Assembly: GCA_041660065.1 (NCBI GenBank)
Contig: JBAZXC010000001.1
Span: 392,535 to 456,534, forward strand
Direction: 5' to 3'
DNA from: Parcubacteria group bacterium
GTDB lineage: Bacteria; Patescibacteriota; Minisyncoccia; Moranbacterales; GCA-2747515
DNA length: 64,000 nucleotides
In this document: one piece after another, positions 1 through 5,215 of the stretch
Layout of the letters: every line of letters starts with the position of its first letter
How positions within the stretch are numbered: the first letter of the stretch is position 1
Notes under the pieces: generated by a model
The model's database searches: none
What the model was told of the DNA's origin: nothing
The model's input: only the letters and a program-made list of their open reading frames with translations
Made by a program: the position numbers and the translations under genes

Positions 1-226
1 TGCCCGTAAAATCGGTTTCGGTAAAATTGCATCCATTGAATACGCAATTGGAAATCTCAAAAGACTCCCGTTTTTCCCCGGACCAATCTTCTTTTTGGAT
101 CGTTTGATCTTCAATGATGTTTTGCATATACGTAATTCGATTATATCATGACGCAAGATCTAACTTCAATAATACAAATAAAAGAGGTAGATTTCTCTAC
201 CTCCAGTAAGAATAATTCCTCCCTTT

Positions 227-511
227 TTACAGAAAACCGCTAGATCTGGCAATCCCAACCAAACCAACAAGAATCCAAAAAGTATTCAGTAAGGCGTAAG
301 CCTTATCCCGCTTCAGAATCGAACACCATGATAATAAAGCCGCATCAGTCGTGTTAAATATCCACACAAACATAAAAGGGCTTTGCGGTCCAAGCCAACT
401 CACTAGTGAAAAACTGAATATGCGCATTGAAACTCCGACCATTTCCAGAGTTTTAATGTTGTTAAGTACAAATGCATTTAATACTTCTACAACATGCCTA
501 AGTCTGCTCAT
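227..511 (-). CDS. hypothetical small membrane protein
   Basis: 94-aa ORF with two hydrophobic segments. No recognisable family. Confidence 0.3.
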   Translation of the reverse strand: MSRLRHVVEVLNAFVLNNIKTLEMVGVSMRIFSFSLVSWLGPQSPFMFVWIFNTTDAALLSWCSILKRDKAYALLNTFWILVGLVGIARSSGFL

Positions 512-841
512 TGTGCCTCCTTTTGTCTGATTTCTATTAAGGTACTTCTTACTATTAGACTAATGTATAAATGCTAACGTGACAAGTTTTGAGTGATAAA
601 AACTCACAACAATAACTCAAAGATCTTACATTGTCAGTAACTTCCACTTAGTGCACAAAAAAGATAATTGCACAAGATATCGCGCAAATATTTATTTCAA
701 TTCATGCCAAATCAAACTAAAAAATAATTATTTATTTGTTCATAATCTATATTTTTTCCAACAATAGTCTTGGCACCGCAAAATTTACAGAACCCACTTT
801 CTTCTAAAATTTGTTTTCCGCAATTTTCACAGAATATATTT

Positions 842-1453
842 TTATGCTAATTGATTACCACAAAATTTACAGAAGTTTCCTTCAAAATTAATTTTTTTTC
901 CACAATTATGACAGAACCTTTTACCCTCAAGAAAATTTTCATCTGTATTTACTGGTTGAATATTATCCTGTTTGTCGGATTTGTTTCTTTTTTTCCTTTC
1001 ATTCTCTATCTTAATTGCTCCATACAGAGGGGCAACAAGTATGAGCCACCAAACTAAAACCATAAAAACTCCTTTTCCATTAAGCGCGATGAGTTGGTAT
1101 CCTTTTTCGATTGTCCATAAAATTATTCCAAGATACATCGCCCATCTGTGCCCCTTATATATAAAAAAGAGAACAGGTATATAAATTATCAAACTATAAA
1201 GAACATCAGCTAGGGGCATAATATCAAAATATCCAAGGATCAGAGATGCTATTATAATTCCCCCAAGAATTAAAGTGGCCTGTCCTCTTTTTGACCTTGT
1301 CATACCTAATTCGTCATACTTTTCTACTTGCATTTTGAATTCTCTCTCTGCTTTTTCACTCGCTTGTTTTTTTTCTTCATCTTTTTCTTCTTGCAACTGT
1401 AATTTAAATGATTTCATAAATAGAGAGTTTATTACAAATAAAAAACAGCCCAA
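842..1453 (-). CDS. membrane protein with C-terminal zinc-ribbon (CxxC-x10-CxxC)
   Basis: 203 aa with several TM helices, a Lys/Glu-rich N-terminus, and a C-terminal CHNCGKKINFEGNFCKFCG zinc ribbon. Start codon is ambiguous. Confidence 0.5.
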   Translation of the reverse strand: MGCFLFVINSLFMKSFKLQLQEEKDEEKKQASEKAEREFKMQVEKYDELGMTRSKRGQATLILGGIIIASLILGYFDIMPLADVLYSLIIYIPVLFFIYKGHRWAMYLGIILWTIEKGYQLIALNGKGVFMVLVWWLILVAPLYGAIKIENERKKRNKSDKQDNIQPVNTDENFLEGKRFCHNCGKKINFEGNFCKFCGNQLA

Positions 1454-1812
1454 AAAAGACTGTCGGCATCAAAAATGTGGTTTTGTGTTTTTCGCAAAAA
1501 CATTGAATTGCAACTTTTTAATATTAATCTATTTTAAAAATAGCACTTAGTTGGGAAAATGCAAGTTTTTTTATTCAAAGAATGAAAATTAGTTCGACTC
1601 AAACCAGACCAAATCAAACTAAAAAATTCCATATGACTATAGCATCCTTTTCACACCATCCCGGTCTAGTACCTCCTTTTAGACAATTTTAAGAGGTTTT
1701 TTGACCTTTTTGGATGAGTATCGATCTTTGTCAAATGAGACAAATGAGACACTGCAATAGTATGAAGTCTCATTCACAAAAATTTGACTTATCAGATTAA
1801 TTGTTACAATAG

Positions 1813-2673
1813 TCACGAAATTCTTTCGTCTAAACGCGAAAATAGATTACTAACCATGATCAGCCTACCAAGTGCCTCATGATGCGGCATTTGCTCCTCA
1901 TCTCCATGACTTAGATTATTACGCCACCAAGTCATCAAACCCATTGTCGTAAGCCTAAAACCCATTTGTTCATTAATTTCCTGAGCTGTTTCAAGATTAT
2001 TAAGCTTAATTTTTGGATCATTCTCATTAAACACATTAGCCATCAGTTTTTGTCCATCCATTTTTTTTAACAAAGATAAGTCCTGCACTGTTTTTTCAAA
2101 TTTCTCTAAAGATTTTCTAACAGCTTCATTTAAATGACCATCCACAAACATTTTCTTGCAATCAGGCAAAAGTGTTGGATGCAGAGGAAACGTATCAAGA
2201 ATTTTTTGTACTGCTATTGGTGGTGGAACGATTTTTGGTCTTTGAGTTGGAAGTTTTAATTCTTTAATTTCTTTTTTTAAATCAACTCCTAGTAGAAACA
2301 ATTGACTTGCAAGCTCAGAGGCTTCTTGTTCCAAAATTGGATTTCCTTCCGAATGTCTCTTTTCAATAGCCCTTGGAAGAATTTCGCGAACAATTAACTT
2401 TAAGGTTCGAGGTTTCTCTTTAATAAGATTCCTTATAAAAACAGAAAATGCTTCCTTCTTATTTACTTTTTTTGGAATATATTCCACAAGCCCTCGTGTT
2501 TTTGCAATCGTCATAAGGGAAAATGAGCTTCTATACCCATCTAACGGAATAAGTCTTCCTAACTGTTCAGCGAGGATGCGTATGTTTTGAATATTCGCAG
2601 CGGATAGCATTTTGAATTTTCGCACTTTATTTTTTTTCGAAACAGTCTTGTGATTGCTTTTTCCTAATTTCAT
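1813..2673 (-). CDS. hypothetical protein with C-terminal Abi_C/TIGR02391-like (HEPN-like Rx4H) region
   Basis: 286 aa. The C-terminal roughly 120 aa carry a WRNNLSHG motif (Rx4H) followed by SNLFSRLDE, resembling the HEPN-type Abi_C/TIGR02391 pattern. 66-bp gap to the upstream 409-aa gene on the same strand. The family assignment is from memory, not a search. Confidence 0.4.
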   Translation of the reverse strand: MKLGKSNHKTVSKKNKVRKFKMLSAANIQNIRILAEQLGRLIPLDGYRSSFSLMTIAKTRGLVEYIPKKVNKKEAFSVFIRNLIKEKPRTLKLIVREILPRAIEKRHSEGNPILEQEASELASQLFLLGVDLKKEIKELKLPTQRPKIVPPPIAVQKILDTFPLHPTLLPDCKKMFVDGHLNEAVRKSLEKFEKTVQDLSLLKKMDGQKLMANVFNENDPKIKLNNLETAQEINEQMGFRLTTMGLMTWWRNNLSHGDEEQMPHHEALGRLIMVSNLFSRLDERIS

Positions 2674-2739
2674 AATTTCTTAAACTATTATATGGTTACA
2701 TAAAATCCCGAGACACCTTAGTGACTCGGGATTTTTTTG

Positions 2740-3969
2740 CTATTTTTTCGCCAACTTCTCCTGCAAGGAATGAATGATCACGGTATTTGCAATATTCTGC
2801 CAAAGCACCTTGCTCTTTCCAGTTTTATTAGGGTTACTATTATATTCCCTAGTATGAGCTTCCAAAACTTGTGAGACTATCTTAGATCCGTGCTTATCAA
2901 GAAATTCCTTCGGATCAATCACCCATACATAACATCCATTCTTCTCTTCCAATAGAAATCGAAGGGCTGCAAAAATCGGCATGGAAAAACCCTTTGATAG
3001 TTTATATCCAACAGTCTTGTTTGAGAATGGAAGCTTCACGGTAACAGGCTTCTTGTTATCTCCCCTTCCACGATATTTTTCAACACCGTTTATACCGCCA
3101 AATTTCTTTACACCAACCTCCTTTGCATAACTCTCAAATTTCGAATAGAGGTGCTCATATGTTTCAAGAATTGAGGGGAGTAGCTTATAAAGTTTTTCAT
3201 ACGTAGGTCTGTTTTTTTTATTCAACCATTTAGTAAAACAGGTAGATATTCCGGTATAAGCAACTGTTGGCTGGCTACTACTATCATACAGATCCTTATT
3301 CAAAGCAGTTAGTAGGGCGAGCAATTCCTCTATGGGAAACATCGCCTCATCGCTATCCAAGTTCTCATTCTCAAAATAAATTACCTTTTGACTATAACCA
3401 CCTAGCGCATCCTTGATAGGTAAAAATTCATTATCAAGATTAACTATAGACTTTTCAGTCACCTGAACACTGGTATTCCTTGCTCTTGCCAATTTGGTAG
3501 CAAACCCCTCAGCACCTTCAACAACAGTAATAAATATAGGAAGATCCTCTAATGATTCATCCTCCATTTTCTTCTTTAGAACCGCGTATGTATGTCCACC
3601 ATCAACTAATCCTCCTTTTGGATTTCCGTCTTCATCCACCCCAAAATCAACCAGGATTTTCTTTTCGTCCCCATCTACATTTGGATAGTAGACTTTTTCA
3701 GCAATCAAGACAAGCCCCCTATTGCAGTCTGTAAAATACTCTGGCTCTTGCTCTAACGTGTCAATCATCTGTCGACAAGGCTTTGCGTTAATATCGGGTT
3801 TTCTAGGATTCGGGGTGGTTGGAAAATTATTAGGTAAGTTTTTAAGCAAAATAAAAAGGAAATGAGTTTTAATAACATCGTTTCCCTCAGGATCGTAATA
3901 GTTTAATTTTCTTCCGATTGTTCTTGCTTGAGAGTAGTTAAACTCCAAGACTTGCTTTGTCTGTGACAT
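2740..3969 (-). CDS. hypothetical protein, AIPR-like / ParB-DGQHR-like putative abortive-infection protein
   Basis: 409 aa. N-terminal region has a GLVDGGHTY motif reminiscent of DGQHR/ParB-like or AIPR nuclease-type motifs. Sits beside the tRNA island. The family call is tentative. Confidence 0.35.
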   Translation of the reverse strand: MSQTKQVLEFNYSQARTIGRKLNYYDPEGNDVIKTHFLFILLKNLPNNFPTTPNPRKPDINAKPCRQMIDTLEQEPEYFTDCNRGLVLIAEKVYYPNVDGDEKKILVDFGVDEDGNPKGGLVDGGHTYAVLKKKMEDESLEDLPIFITVVEGAEGFATKLARARNTSVQVTEKSIVNLDNEFLPIKDALGGYSQKVIYFENENLDSDEAMFPIEELLALLTALNKDLYDSSSQPTVAYTGISTCFTKWLNKKNRPTYEKLYKLLPSILETYEHLYSKFESYAKEVGVKKFGGINGVEKYRGRGDNKKPVTVKLPFSNKTVGYKLSKGFSMPIFAALRFLLEEKNGCYVWVIDPKEFLDKHGSKIVSQVLEAHTREYNSNPNKTGKSKVLWQNIANTVIIHSLQEKLAKK

Positions 3970-4114
3970 AGTTTTGTCATTAAAATTAGTTAATTTTTCG
4001 CTTCGCTGAAAGCAATATTACTTCAGTTAGCTGAACTTGCGGTAAGATTACCTGCAAATCTAATACGAGTATAACAAAAATATTTCAACTTGTCAATATC
4101 TCTTTTCTTTCATC

Positions 4115-4213
4115 TGCACGGGATGTAGGAATCGAACCTACGCCAAAGGTTTTGGAGACCTCTATACTACACCTGTCACTCACGAGTGACGGGTCGGACA
4201 CTATACGAATCAT
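4115..4213 (-). pseudogene. tRNA-Trp pseudo-copy (29-nt hairpin insertion in D-loop, 5' acceptor strand lost)
   Basis: Identical to the intact tRNA-Trp through the anticodon arm (CCA), T-arm and 3' acceptor strand. The D-loop carries the insert acctgtcactcacgagtgacgggtcggac. The 5' acceptor is replaced by aatgatt. Confidence 0.7.
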
Positions 4214-4216
4214 TTG

Positions 4217-4287
4217 CACGGGATGTAGGAATCGAACCTACGCCAAAGGTTTTGGAGACCTCTATACTACCACTATACGAATCCCGC
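4217..4287 (-). tRNA. tRNA-Trp (anticodon CCA)
   Basis: Cloverleaf folded by hand. Acceptor GCGGGAT/ATCCCGT with G1-U72. Anticodon stem GAGGT/ACCTT. Loop CUCCAAA. T-arm GTAGG-TTCGATT-CCTAC. No encoded CCA. Confidence 0.8.
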
Positions 4288-4295
4288 AATTTTTA

Positions 4296-4550
4296 TTATT
4301 TTAAACCCAATCTCTTCATTAAACTCATATATACCGAACCGCTTGTTTTTAATCCCTTCTCCCTATTACGTGCCAACTGTTCATTTTCAAATGCTTCATA
4401 ATAGATCAGTTCCGGTTTTTTGTTCTTTGTGGTGTTATTTTGTCCTGCACAATGTTGCGCGAGACGTTTACGCAAATCAGCTGTATATCCAATGTAAAAC
4501 TCCTTATCGCCACACTTTTGCAATTTTAGCACATACACATAGTACATCAC
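4296..4550 (-). CDS. GIY-YIG domain nuclease (small YhbQ/UPF0213-like)
   Basis: 84 aa. YVYVLKL...FYIGYTADLRKRLAQH is a canonical GIY-YIG motif. Confidence 0.8.
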   Translation of the reverse strand: MMYYVYVLKLQKCGDKEFYIGYTADLRKRLAQHCAGQNNTTKNKKPELIYYEAFENEQLARNREKGLKTSGSVYMSLMKRLGLK

Positions 4551-4568
4551 AATTTGAATTTATTTCAC

Positions 4569-4629
4569 AGGAGACCTCTATTGCACCTGTCACTCACGAG
4601 TGACGGGTCGGACACTATACGAATCCCGC
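4569..4629 (-). pseudogene. tRNA-Trp 5' fragment (acceptor + D-arm with the same 29-nt insertion, truncated after anticodon-stem 5' strand)
   Basis: Reverse complement reads GCGGGATTCGTATAGTG, then the same insert, then CAATAGAGGTCTCC, then diverges. Confidence 0.65.
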
Positions 4630-4731
4630 CTGCCTAAATCTTGTAAAAAAATTGTAGCCGTCACGCCATTCTCACCATTCATCTTTATACCAAAATGTCT
4701 TTACATACTTGCAGTACAAGATTTTGGCAGG
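4629..4731. repeat. extended palindromic element with CCTGCC...GGCAGG terminal inverted repeats (17 of 17 with 1 mismatch)
   Basis: cctgcctaaatcttgta ... tacaagattttggcagg. Abuts the 5' end of the tRNA-Trp fragment. Confidence 0.5.
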
Positions 4732-4785
4732 CACGCCGTATCCACATTCTATTGTAACGATTATTTCATTTTTTGTCACATTCTG

Positions 4786-4858
4786 AGCCCACGAGCAGAA
4801 TTGAACTGCTGGCCTTTTCCTTACCATGGAAATGCTCTACCATCTGAGCTACGTGGGC
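4786..4858 (-). tRNA. tRNA-Thr (anticodon GGT)
   Basis: GCCCACG acceptor. Anticodon stem TTTCC/GGAAA with loop AUGGUAA. T-loop TTCAATT. Confidence 0.8.
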
Positions 4859-4982
4859 ACAATCCTTTACAGATAAAGCCGACACTTTACAGTAATCGGC
4901 CGCATCCGCTATGTCTTCCTCTGTATTTCTTTCGTTTGGGTTTACACTGAGCAAGTCCCTACTTGTGGGACGAGTCGACGTG

Positions 4983-5065
4983 TGGGCCGGGAGGGATTTG
5001 AACCCCCGAAGACCGAAGTCGCCTGATTTACAGTCAGGTGCATTTGACCACTCTGCCACCGACCC
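4983..5065 (-). tRNA. tRNA-Tyr (anticodon GTA), long variable arm
   Basis: Acceptor GGGTCGG/CCGGCCC. Anticodon stem CCTGA/TCAGG with loop CUGUAAA. Long variable arm. T-loop TTCAAAT. Confidence 0.8.
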
Positions 5066-5142
5066 AGTTCAATATCAAATATAAAAAATGAAGAATCAAA
5101 AATATTTTTGATATTTGATTTTTCATCTTTAATTTAATACTG

Positions 5143-5215
5143 AGCCACTTGTCAGACTCGAACTGACGACCTGCGGTTTACAAAACCGATGCTCTACCAA
5201 TTGAGCTAAAGTGGC
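5143..5215 (-). tRNA. tRNA-Thr (anticodon TGT)
   Basis: Acceptor GCCACTT/AAGTGGC. Anticodon loop UUUGUAA. T-loop TTCGAGT. Confidence 0.8.

What the first reader, a model, noticed from the sequence alone, without database searches (positions are those of the whole stretch)
1813..3969. Two-gene putative abortive-infection/HEPN-like module at the edge of a tRNA island
A 409-aa protein (2740-3969) and a 286-aa protein (1813-2673) form a tight co-directional pair (66-bp gap) with no housekeeping context. The larger one has an N-terminal GLVDGGHTY motif of the ParB/DGQHR/AIPR type (the NGxQT-like position). The smaller one ends in a domain with an Rx4H motif (WRNNLSHG) followed by SNLFSRLDE, the pattern I associate with HEPN-type Abi_C/TIGR02391 proteins. 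These are predicted RNase toxin modules of abortive-infection systems. The pair sits right beside a four-tRNA cluster that also holds a nested GIY-YIG element. tRNA loci are classic landing sites for defence islands. The combination of these two families as an operon is not one I can name as a described system. Family assignments here are from recalled motifs, not a search.
Basis: partly seen in the sequence, partly recalled or inferred. Interest (0 to 1): 0.7.

Follow-up and report, generated by a model that had tools for sequence, protein, structure and literature searches.

The report
Two unlinked defence genes beside tRNA-Trp
Two adjacent genes in a Parcubacteria genome do belong to known phage-defence-associated families (AIPR and a HEPN-type predicted RNase), but they are independent neighbours in a small swappable gene island next to a tRNA gene, not a new two-gene system.

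Summary
Both ORFs, the 66-bp gap, the motifs and the tRNA/GIY-YIG neighbourhood are there, on the minus strand.

The "two-gene module" reading is not supported:
- None of 80 AIPR loci, 79 loci of the 286-aa family, or ten further loci of close relatives holds both genes.
- Each family has its own, different neighbours.
- A strong terminator-like hairpin (-22.4 kcal/mol, z -5.9) separates the two genes.
- The HEPN protein has a self-contained N-terminal-domain-plus-effector architecture.

The "island at a tRNA" reading is supported. The pair lies in a ~3.9-kb low-GC segment just after tRNA-Trp. A sister genome (EF-Ts 91% identical) has the same flanks but carries RelA_SpoT, a GTPase and HEPN_AbiU2 there instead. 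A third relative has an almost empty site.

An AIPR gene next to a HEPN gene has a described precedent, lactococcal AbiU. This is an ordinary new member of known kinds.

The parts
2740..3969 (-). 409-aa core-only AIPR/AbiU1-family protein. It has a small N-terminal beta region, a ParB/DGQHR-like region around the DGGHT motif, and a helical C-terminal half. No HEPN or other nuclease domain is detected.
3589..3603 (-). Codons for D123-G124-G125-H126-T127, the DGQHR-like motif of the AIPR protein
   Evidence: Sequence read. D123 and G124 are invariant and H126 is kept in at least 90% of 34 homologues.
4068..4096 (-). Sigma-70-like promoter (TTGACA, 17-nt spacer, TATACT, with TG extension) about 100 nt upstream of the AIPR start codon, directly after the tRNA-Trp 3' remnant
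   Evidence: 11 of 12 matches, the best site in the region. This is a consensus match only; function is inferred.
2696..2735 (-). Terminator-like stem-loop (CCCGAGUCAC / GUGUCUCGGG) followed by UUUUAU, in the 66-bp gap between the two genes
   Evidence: Inverted repeat I17. RNA fold -22.4 kcal/mol, z = -5.92, and 0 of 200 shuffles fold as well.
1813..2673 (-). 286-aa protein: a basic N-terminal tail, a helical N-terminal domain, and a C-terminal Ymh/TIGR02391 HEPN domain
   Evidence: ORF. Pfam Hypoth_Ymh, E=9.7e-23. TIGR02391, 61.4 bits against a cut-off of 39.45. PADLOC PD-Lambda-3_B, E=3.3e-10, and Aga_HEPN, E=4.6e-9. Model pLDDT 87.3.
2194..2610 (-). N-terminal helical domain (residues 22-160), with no Pfam family. 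It is a narrow, swappable module also found fused to Mrr-type REase and YgjP-like peptidase domains.
   Evidence: A profile search of 1.84 billion representatives gave 72 hits, all in proteins of 326 aa or fewer and always N-terminal. Of 36 proteins scanned, 20 carry Hypoth_Ymh, 5 Mrr_cat and 1 YgjP-like.
1831..2184 (-). HEPN (Ymh) domain, residues 164-281
1906..1923 (-). Codons for R251-N-N-L-S-H256, the Rx4H catalytic motif of the HEPN domain
   Evidence: Sequence read. R251, N252, S255 and H256 are invariant in 33 homologues.
190..4110 (.). Variable low-GC cargo segment downstream of tRNA-Trp. It holds AIPR, the HEPN gene, a 203-aa membrane/Zn-ribbon protein gene (842-1453) and a 94-aa membrane protein gene (227-511). 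It is absent from close relatives that share both flanks.
   Evidence: GC is 0.348 for 1-4000, against 0.40-0.46 in the other fifteen 4-kb blocks; the profile continues in L179. tblastx against the sister genome L180 shows collinearity up to the tRNAs, resuming at the pentapeptide gene at about window position 158. The boundaries are approximate.
4110..4287 (-). Boundary of the islet: the complete tRNA-Trp (4216-4287) and a 61-nt duplicate of its 3' part (4110-4170)
   Evidence: repeat D1, 98% identity; Rfam tRNA 32.6 bits at 4117-4176.

Best explanation
The two genes are two separate, self-sufficient, single-gene modules of defence-associated families. They happen to lie side by side in a small (~3.9 kb), low-GC, horizontally exchanged cargo segment at a hypervariable site just downstream of tRNA-Trp in a Parcubacteria (CPR) genome.

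Module 1 is a core-only AIPR/AbiU1-family protein with its own promoter-like site and terminator-like hairpin. By analogy with lactococcal AbiUi, which alone confers modest phage resistance and delays phage transcription, it probably acts on nucleic acid through its ParB/DGQHR-like region. This step is inferred.

Module 2 is a one-polypeptide sensor/regulator-plus-effector protein. Its N-terminal helical domain also occurs with Mrr-type DNase or YgjP-like peptidase effectors, and here it controls a C-terminal Ymh-type HEPN domain. As in other HEPN toxins, two HEPN domains would dimerise to form a composite Rx4H active site that cleaves RNA (tRNA, rRNA or mRNA) when triggered, stopping translation and aborting infection. 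This step is also inferred.

Shown here: family membership, motif conservation, the HEPN fold, the absence of any conserved linkage between the two genes, the modularity of the N-terminal domain, and the replacement or absence of the segment in close relatives. Not shown: anti-phage activity, RNase activity, the trigger, and the transcription units.
For: Families. HEPN motif invariance. HEPN fold.

No linkage:
- HMMs of both families run against six-frame ORFs of 159 anchored loci find both genes only in the window.
- The denominators are adequate: 75 of 80 AIPR loci have room for a partner downstream, and 51 of 79 Ymh-family loci have room upstream.
- The nearest AIPR relatives (77-83% identity) sit after an Eco57I/MmeI-type methylase in an AbiEii/PLD-helicase island, next to DUF3800 and an integrase, among HtrA and ClpB, or after an N6_N4 methylase.
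- The nearest relatives of the 286-aa protein (77-80% identity) sit after a KAP NTPase, an unknown 301-aa gene or a DUF4238 gene, in elements with an S24 repressor and a serine recombinase. A 59%-identical relative sits in the same kind of element.
- In the homologue tables, no contig length other than the window's own 469,125 bp is shared between the two families.

Family-specific neighbours: a divergent XRE HTH gene in 53 of 80 AIPR loci and a 640-730-aa partner in 17 of 80. For the Ymh family: HsdS/HsdM in 20 of 79 loci (gaps of -4 to +1 nt to HsdS), an N6_N4 methylase in 10 and a serine recombinase in 12. No HEPN family recurs among 140 AIPR neighbours.

Separate expression signals: a promoter-like site before AIPR and a hairpin with z = -5.9 between the genes.

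Modular N-terminal domain.

Variable islet: low GC. The sister genome L180 has the same flanks but RelA_SpoT, a GTPase and HEPN_AbiU2 as cargo. L183 has only about 130 bp between tRNA-Trp and the conserved PRPP-synthetase-like gene.

Literature: AbiUi alone suffices for resistance (PMC13064643). Ymh occurs solo, fused, or in RM operons (PMC3710099).
Against: The genes are co-directional and only 66 bp apart, and no convincing -35/-10 pair was called for the downstream gene. Only a lone TATAAT lies between the hairpin and the ATG, so read-through co-transcription cannot be excluded.

The AIPR protein has no recognisable effector domain of its own, while AIPR/COG1479 domains are often fused or adjacent to nucleases, including HEPN (PMC3632139, PMC3506569). 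AbiU itself pairs the two domain types. A functional liaison in this one lineage is therefore conceivable.

Only 14 CPR-clade AIPR loci (12 distinct contexts) could be inspected. No integrase or att duplication delimits the segment, so horizontal acquisition is inferred from GC and synteny only. No experiment exists for either family in CPR bacteria.
Confidence: 0.72

Rival explanations
1. A true, lineage-specific two-component system of the AbiU type. The effector-less AIPR protein senses or binds phage nucleic acid, or regulates, and the neighbouring HEPN protein is its RNase effector or modulator. The two would be expressed together by read-through.
For: The genes are adjacent, on the same strand, with a 66-bp gap. 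Lactococcal AbiU is AbiUi (AIPR family) plus AbiUii (HEPN). AIPR/COG1479/DndB domains are repeatedly fused to HEPN. The 409-aa protein lacks any effector domain. The gene upstream of the Ymh protein varies between genomes (KAP NTPase, DUF4238, HsdS and others), which could mean interchangeable partners.
Against: The pair occurs in no independent locus out of more than 170 examined. A strong terminator-like hairpin lies between the genes. The N-terminal domain of the HEPN protein stays about 60-80% identical whatever the upstream gene is, so it is not adapted to AIPR. No HEPN family recurs next to this AIPR clade. In AbiU the HEPN partner was dispensable and lowered activity.
Confidence: 0.13
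2. The HEPN protein is a displaced 'guard' of a restriction-modification system, analogous to PrrC. Normally it would be embedded in a type I RM operon and switched on when phage inhibits the RM complex. Here it is an orphan, and AIPR, a family also linked to RM, is an unrelated RM-associated leftover.
For: Twenty of 79 family loci carry HsdS/HsdM, with the Ymh gene overlapping or abutting hsdS (gaps of -4 to +1 nt). The literature proposes PrrC/RloC-like roles for Ymh in RM neighbourhoods and links AbiU1/AIPR to RM. Close AIPR relatives follow methylase genes.
Against: No RM gene lies within the window islet or in the 10 kb beyond it. The closest relatives of the HEPN protein (77-80% identity) are in recombinase/repressor elements without type I RM. 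Both ORFs are intact with invariant catalytic residues, so they are not decaying leftovers.
Confidence: 0.1
3. Neither gene is a defence gene in this organism. They are selfish or regulatory cargo, for example a DndB-like DNA-binding regulator and an addiction toxin, carried on mobile DNA.
For: There is no experimental evidence for either subfamily. AIPR has no PADLOC or PHROG model hit. The Ymh family often rides on integrative elements. DndB is a regulator, not an effector.
Against: Both domains are enriched in defence contexts according to the literature. The HEPN domain matches PD-Lambda-3_B, a component of an experimentally validated abortive-infection system. The neighbours of relatives are RM, AbiEii, CBASS, GmrSD and PifA-like KAP NTPase genes. 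The same hotspot in the sister genome carries other defence-type genes.
Confidence: 0.05

Closest known systems
Lactococcal AbiU (AbiUi of the AbiU1/AIPR family, plus AbiUii, a HEPN_AbiU2 protein; Dai et al. 2001 as reviewed in PMC13064643)
   Same: An AIPR-family gene lies next to a HEPN-family gene in a defence context, and the AIPR component is thought to be able to act alone.
   Different: The HEPN family differs (Ymh/TIGR02391 here, AbiU2 there). The window's AIPR protein matches no PADLOC model of any system. The pairing is not conserved for these subfamilies. HEPN_AbiU2 does occur at the same hotspot in the sister genome, but without AIPR.
Ymh (PF09509/TIGR02391) HEPN family as described by Anantharaman et al. 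2013 (PMC3710099): found solo, fused to AbiJ-NTD1/2, AbiTii or paraMORC, and in RM operons
   Same: The C-terminal domain is a bona fide member, with the Rx4H motif and the HEPN fold. The architecture is an N-terminal accessory domain plus HEPN. Relatives lie in type I RM operons.
   Different: The N-terminal domain has no Pfam model. The subfamily is concentrated in Patescibacteria and metagenomes.
PD-lambda-3 (Vassallo et al. 2022; used as an abortive-infection control in PMC13190303)
   Same: Residues 158-283 match the PADLOC model PD-Lambda-3_B (E=3.3e-10). This is the closest experimentally validated relative of the HEPN domain.
   Different: Only the C-terminal domain matches (profile positions 136-262 of 270). 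No PD-Lambda-3_A-type partner is present; the system is listed with a PD-(D/E)xK nuclease domain in PMC10952713, and the AIPR protein has no PADLOC hit.
DndB / DGQHR / COG1479 (DUF262) ParB-superfamily domains
   Different: There are no profile hits to the DGQHR, DndB, ParBc or GmrSD_N models. The final R of the motif is replaced by T. No fused nuclease or HEPN domain is present.
Firmicutes/Bifidobacterium clade of ~400-aa AIPR proteins with a divergent XRE-type HTH gene and, in some, a PDC-M33A-like partner
   Same: Same Pfam family, the same length, and 28-34% identity over the full length.
   Different: The window gene and its CPR relatives lack both the divergent HTH gene and the 640-730-aa partner.

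Membership tests
AIPR (Pfam PF10592) | Profile match above the curated gathering score over most of the model | tested here: met
   88.5 bits against a cut-off of 25, E=8.2e-25, profile positions 3-301 of 308. All 61 homologues carry PF10592.
AIPR/AbiU1 proteins with a fused HEPN or other nuclease domain (as described in PMC3506569 and PMC3632139) | An additional HEPN, HNH or PD-(D/E)xK domain in the same polypeptide | tested here: not met
   [not shown]
DGQHR / DndB (NCBIfam) and ParB-like nuclease (Pfam ParBc, GmrSD_N) | Profile match, the DGQHR motif and a ParB-N fold | tested here: inconclusive
   [not shown]
TIGR02391 / Hypoth_Ymh (PF09509) | Profile match above the curated cut-offs | tested here: met
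   Pfam 80.8 bits against 25, residues 164-281 on profile positions 3-119 of 119. NCBIfam 61.4 bits against 39.45.
HEPN superfamily | A conserved Rx4-6H motif on the last core helix | tested here: met
   R251-N-N-L-S-H256. R251, N252, S255 and H256 are invariant in 33 sequences of 39-80% identity.
HEPN superfamily | The four-helix up-and-down HEPN fold | tested here: met
   [not shown]
HEPN superfamily | Metal-independent endoribonuclease activity and toxicity | not testable with these tools
   This requires biochemistry and genetics.
Abi_C / AbiJ-type HEPN (PF14355) | Profile match | tested here: not met
   No hit at E<=1 in the Pfam scan.
AbiJ-NTD-type accessory domains (Anantharaman 2013) | An N-terminal helical domain of ~100-140 aa that recurs in front of different effector domains (HEPN, Mrr REase and others) | tested here: inconclusive
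   The behaviour is met: the domain is fused to Ymh (20), Mrr_cat (5) and YgjP-like (1) in 36 representatives. Sequence identity with AbiJ-NTD1 or NTD2 could not be tested, and the whole-protein Pfam scan at E<=1 gave no hit other than Hypoth_Ymh.
PD-lambda-3 system | Both components, A and B, present | tested here: not met
   Only the B model matches, and only on the HEPN domain (E=3.3e-10). The upstream gene has no PADLOC hit.
Conserved two-gene operon or system (AIPR + Ymh) | Recurrent adjacency of the two families in independent genomes | tested here: not met
   No co-occurrence in 80 AIPR loci, 79 Ymh-family loci, or ten further loci of close relatives. Only the window, and an identical assembly of the same strain, has both.
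Conserved two-gene operon or system (AIPR + Ymh) | A single transcription unit | tested here: inconclusive
   A terminator-like hairpin lies in the gap (z = -5.9) and a promoter-like site was called only upstream of AIPR. No transcript data are available.
Variable genomic (defence) islet at a tRNA hotspot | Conserved flanks with different or absent cargo in close relatives, and atypical composition | tested here: met
   L180 (EF-Ts 91%) has the same flanks with different cargo. L183 (80%) has about 130 bp at the site. L182 (81%) has other genes. GC is 0.30-0.375 against about 0.42.
Integrase-mediated genomic island | An integrase gene and flanking att duplication of the tRNA 3' end | tested here: not met
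   No integrase lies within 10 kb beyond the pair. The only second copy of the tRNA-Trp 3' end is 100 bp from the first, on the same side of the islet.

The most novel reading that the evidence does not exclude
In this Parcubacteria lineage the effector-less AIPR protein and the NTD-Ymh HEPN protein have recently been combined into a working AbiU-like two-component system. AIPR would act as the nucleic-acid-sensing or regulatory part and HEPN as the RNase effector. This would be a first defined Abi-type system in CPR bacteria, and an example of a defence system being assembled at a tRNA hotspot. A smaller novel point is that the N-terminal domain of the HEPN protein is a previously unnamed sensor module shared by RNase, DNase and peptidase effectors.
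Probability: 0.12. Interest if true: 0.5.

Novelty: new member of a known kind. Interest (0 to 1): 0.22.

Why it matters
The finding adds little beyond cataloguing. Both proteins belong to families that were computationally linked to defence more than a decade ago, and both are already named correctly in the public annotation.

Three points have modest value:
1. It gives a clean example of a hypervariable cargo site downstream of tRNA-Trp in CPR/Patescibacteria, a group reported to carry few classical defence systems. Alternative occupants are seen in close relatives: AIPR plus Ymh-HEPN, RelA_SpoT plus GTPase plus AbiU2-HEPN, or nothing.
2. The N-terminal domain of the HEPN protein is a narrow, swappable module placed in front of RNase, DNase or peptidase effectors.
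3. The ~400-aa core-only AIPR clade has its own recurrent partners elsewhere (a divergent XRE HTH gene and a PDC-M33A-like protein) and is absent from PADLOC.

The result also shows that adjacency of two defence-type genes inside an island is not evidence for a system.

Tried and rejected
1. Conserved pair: searched in both directions with family HMMs over 159 anchored loci, plus the contigs of the nearest relatives. None was found.

2. 'AIPR next to any HEPN family': Pfam scan of 140 neighbours. No HEPN family recurs.

3. Second assembly with the pair (L179): rejected as independent evidence, because it is 100% identical over 2,445 nt.

4. Integrase/att-bounded island: no integrase, and no distal copy of the tRNA 3' end within 12 kb. 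The duplicated tRNA-Trp piece belongs to the GIY-YIG cassette, not to the AIPR/HEPN segment.

5. Solved-structure relatives by sequence: none for either family.

7. Abi_C, DGQHR, DndB and ParBc profiles: no hits.

8. Phage origin: 9 distant AIPR relatives and no relatives of the HEPN protein on viral contigs. PHROGs gave only a marginal hit.

9. AbiJ-NTD1/2 comparison: the supplement is not held.

10. An Rfam hit to BTnc005 inside the HEPN gene (23.5 bits against a gathering score of 174.8) was dismissed as noise.

Full report
**Observation**

The ORF list shows a 409-aa ORF at 2740-3969 and a 286-aa ORF at 1813-2673. Both are on the minus strand and are separated by 66 bp, so the larger gene is upstream. 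The quoted motifs are present: GLVDGGHTY at residues 120-128, WRNNLSHG at 250-257 and SNLFSRLDE at 275-283. Four tRNA genes (Trp, Thr, Tyr, Thr) lie at 4216-5215 on the same strand. An 84-aa GIY-YIG ORF lies between tRNA-Thr and tRNA-Trp.

**Family assignment**

The large protein matches Pfam AIPR (PF10592) at E=8.2e-25 over residues 53-377, and nothing else of significance. It has no hit in NCBIfam, PADLOC or PHROGs.

The small protein matches Hypoth_Ymh (PF09509, E=9.7e-23, residues 164-281) and TIGR02391 (61.4 bits against a cut-off of 39.45). In PADLOC the same region matches PD-Lambda-3_B (E=3.3e-10) and the Argonaute-associated HEPN model (E=4.6e-9). Abi_C (PF14355), DGQHR/DndB and ParB models do not match.

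The public records already name the proteins 'AIPR family protein' and 'TIGR02391 family protein', from a Parcubacteria-group MAG contig of 469 kb.

In an alignment of 33 homologues (39-80% identity), R251, N252, S255 and H256 of the Rx4H motif are invariant, as are N182 and E183. In 34 AIPR homologues, G120, D123 and G124 and the block A161-x-A163-R-N-x-S-x-Q-V170 are invariant.

**Structure**

**Is it a two-gene system?**

I fetched 80 loci encoding AIPR relatives from reference genomes and 80 loci encoding relatives of the 286-aa protein from metagenomes. I then searched their six-frame ORFs with HMMs of AIPR and of the N-terminal and C-terminal halves of the small protein. Only the window contains both.

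The denominators are adequate. Seventy-five of 80 AIPR loci have room for the partner downstream, and 51 of 79 loci of the other family have room upstream.

The nearest relatives give the same answer.
- AIPR at 78% identity follows an Eco57I/MmeI-type methylase in an island with AbiEii and a PLD-SNF2 helicase.
- AIPR at 83% identity is followed by DUF3800 and an integrase.
- AIPR at 79% identity lies among HtrA and ClpB genes.
- AIPR at 77% identity follows an N6_N4 methylase.
- Relatives of the small protein at 77-80% identity follow a PifA-like KAP NTPase, an unknown 301-aa gene or a DUF4238 gene. They lie in elements with an S24 repressor, a ParB-methylase and a serine recombinase.
- A 59%-identical relative sits in the same kind of element.

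In the two homologue tables, no contig length other than 469,125 bp is shared. The second assembly that carries the pair (L179) is 100% identical over 2,445 nt, so it is the same strain.

**Each family has its own partners**

Outside the CPR, 53 of 80 AIPR loci have a divergently transcribed XRE-type HTH gene immediately upstream. Seventeen of 80 have a 640-730-aa protein downstream, one form of which is PADLOC candidate PDC-M33A (E=4e-183).

The family of the 286-aa protein sits in type I RM operons in 20 of 79 loci, overlapping or abutting hsdS. It lies next to N6_N4 methylases in 10 loci and next to serine recombinases in 12.

A Pfam scan of 140 further neighbours of the AIPR loci shows a generic defence-island mix (HTH, Dcm, GmrSD, CBASS cyclases, Fic) and no recurrent HEPN family.

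**Local signals**

The best promoter-like site of the region (11 of 12 matches, TG-extended) lies about 100 nt upstream of the AIPR start. The 66-bp gap holds a stem-loop of -22.4 kcal/mol (z = -5.9, no shuffle folding as well) followed by UUUUAU. This suggests, but does not prove, separate transcription units.

**The small protein is self-contained**

A profile of its N-terminal domain (residues 22-160) finds only 72 representatives among 1.84 billion proteins. All are 326 aa or shorter, with the domain at the N-terminus. Of 36 scanned, 20 carry Ymh HEPN, 5 carry an Mrr-type restriction-endonuclease domain (N-terminal domain at about 4-114, Mrr at about 170-280) and one carries a YgjP-like metallopeptidase.

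This is the pattern described for the AbiJ-NTD accessory domains, which occur in front of Ymh, Mrr REases and other effectors (PMC3710099). I could not test identity with AbiJ-NTD1 or NTD2. Such architectures are read as one-protein sensor/regulator-plus-effector modules.

**The genomic setting**

The first 4 kb of the window has the lowest GC of all sixteen 4-kb blocks (0.348 against 0.40-0.46). In the extended contig, GC stays at 0.30-0.375 for about 4.5 kb and then recovers.

A sister genome with 91%-identical EF-Ts (L180) is collinear from prfA through tsf, the TPR gene and the four tRNAs. Collinearity resumes at a pentapeptide-repeat gene (77% aa identity), a PAS-GGDEF gene, a PRPP-synthetase-like gene (81%) and a 3D-domain gene. 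Between tRNA-Trp and the pentapeptide gene, however, it carries a small RelA_SpoT protein, an RsgA-like GTPase and a HEPN_AbiU2 protein instead of AIPR, the Ymh protein and the two small membrane proteins.

A relative with 80%-identical EF-Ts (L183) has only about 130 bp between tRNA-Trp and the PRPP-synthetase-like gene. Another at 81% (L182) has unrelated genes, followed by secE-nusG-rplKA.

The site is therefore a hypervariable cargo hotspot: 0.13, 6.5 and 9 kb in the three genomes. No integrase or flanking att duplication was found.

**Comparison with what is known**

The literature places AbiU1/AIPR/COG1479 in the ParB superfamily. These domains are often fused to HNH, PD-(D/E)xK or HEPN domains and are linked to RM systems (PMC3506569, PMC3632139).

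Lactococcal AbiU consists of AbiUi (the AIPR-family component), which alone confers modest resistance and delays phage transcription. AbiUii, a HEPN protein, lowers that activity (PMC13064643).

Ymh is a recognised HEPN family, found solo, fused, or in RM operons. PD-lambda-3, whose B component resembles the HEPN domain here, is a validated abortive-infection system (PMC13190303).

**Conclusion**

The pair consists of two independent members of known defence-associated families, lying side by side in a variable low-GC islet at a tRNA-Trp hotspot of a Parcubacteria genome. The conserved-system reading is not supported. A lineage-specific functional liaison of the AbiU type cannot be excluded, and I rate it at about 0.12-0.13. 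Novelty: new member of a known kind. Interest: low.

Noticed in passing
window 4110-4629 (minus strand): The tRNA-Trp locus is composite. In order it holds the first 17 nt of tRNA-Trp (4629-4613), a 28-nt hairpin box TCCGACCCGTCACTCGTGAGTGACAGGT, the 84-aa GIY-YIG ORF (4550-4296), a complete tRNA-Trp (4287-4216), then 13 nt of the tRNA 5' part, the same 28-nt box, and the 3' 61 nt of tRNA-Trp (4170-4110, 98% identical). It reads like a GIY-YIG cassette that carries its own tRNA-Trp copy and inserted into the D-loop of the resident gene. The sister genome L180 lacks it (Thr-Trp spacing of 80 nt).
   Followed up: partly
L180 12009-15024: At the same tRNA-Trp hotspot, the sister genome carries a 209-aa RelA_SpoT protein (PADLOC candidate PDC-S33, E=3e-11), a 366-aa RsgA-like GTPase and a 212-aa HEPN_AbiU2 protein. 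This is a different putative defence cargo, and it again includes a HEPN protein.
   Followed up: partly
L006-L080 (for example L042 7561-7824, L063 9193-11391, L040 9128-11056): The ~400-aa AIPR clade of Firmicutes, Bifidobacterium and other groups has a divergently transcribed XRE-type HTH gene in 53 of 80 loci and a 640-730-aa downstream protein in 17 of 80. One form of that protein is PADLOC candidate PDC-M33A (E=4e-183), yet the AIPR proteins themselves match no PADLOC model. This may be an under-described HTH/AIPR(/PDC-M33A) module.
   Followed up: partly
P0213, P0215, P0217, P0222, P0227 (Mrr_cat fusions); P0220 (YgjP-like fusion): The N-terminal domain of the 286-aa protein also occurs in front of Mrr-type restriction-endonuclease domains and a YgjP-like metallopeptidase. 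It has no Pfam model. It may correspond to AbiJ-NTD1/2, or it may be unnamed.
   Followed up: partly
[not shown]
   Followed up: no
window 3460-3489 (AIPR residues 161-170): The block ARARNTSVQV is invariant except T166 and V168 (>=90%) across 34 AIPR homologues down to 26% identity. It contains R164-x4-Q169, which resembles a HEPN Rx4H motif with Q in place of H, and it lies next to a low-confidence loop (pLDDT below 50 at 166-176).
   Followed up: no
L179 4655-6964 (just beyond the window's left edge) compared with L180 15937-16368: There is a second variable spot between the conserved pentapeptide-repeat and PAS-GGDEF genes. The window genome has a patatin-like phospholipase (weak match to CBASS phospholipase effector models, E about 1e-6) plus an unknown 405-aa protein. 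The sister genome has a MarR gene there.
   Followed up: no
L150, L152, L153, L157 and others: In type I RM operons, the Ymh-family gene overlaps or abuts hsdS (gaps of -4 to +1 nt). It is often followed by a 378-aa protein (weak Aga_Nuclease match) and an AAA_15/21 ATPase with DUF3696. This is a recurrent RM-embedded arrangement reminiscent of PrrC.
   Followed up: partly
window 775-874: Three copies of an 18-nt direct repeat (ACCGCAAAATTTACAGAA-like) occur at a spacing of about 40-42 nt, at and just beyond the 3' end of the 203-aa membrane/Zn-ribbon gene.
   Followed up: no
L172 9297-9530 and L184 7675-7920: A small DUF2188 gene lies directly downstream of a close AIPR relative in one genome and directly upstream of a Ymh-family relative in another. 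This may be coincidence, or DUF2188 may be a common small cargo gene of these islands.
   Followed up: no
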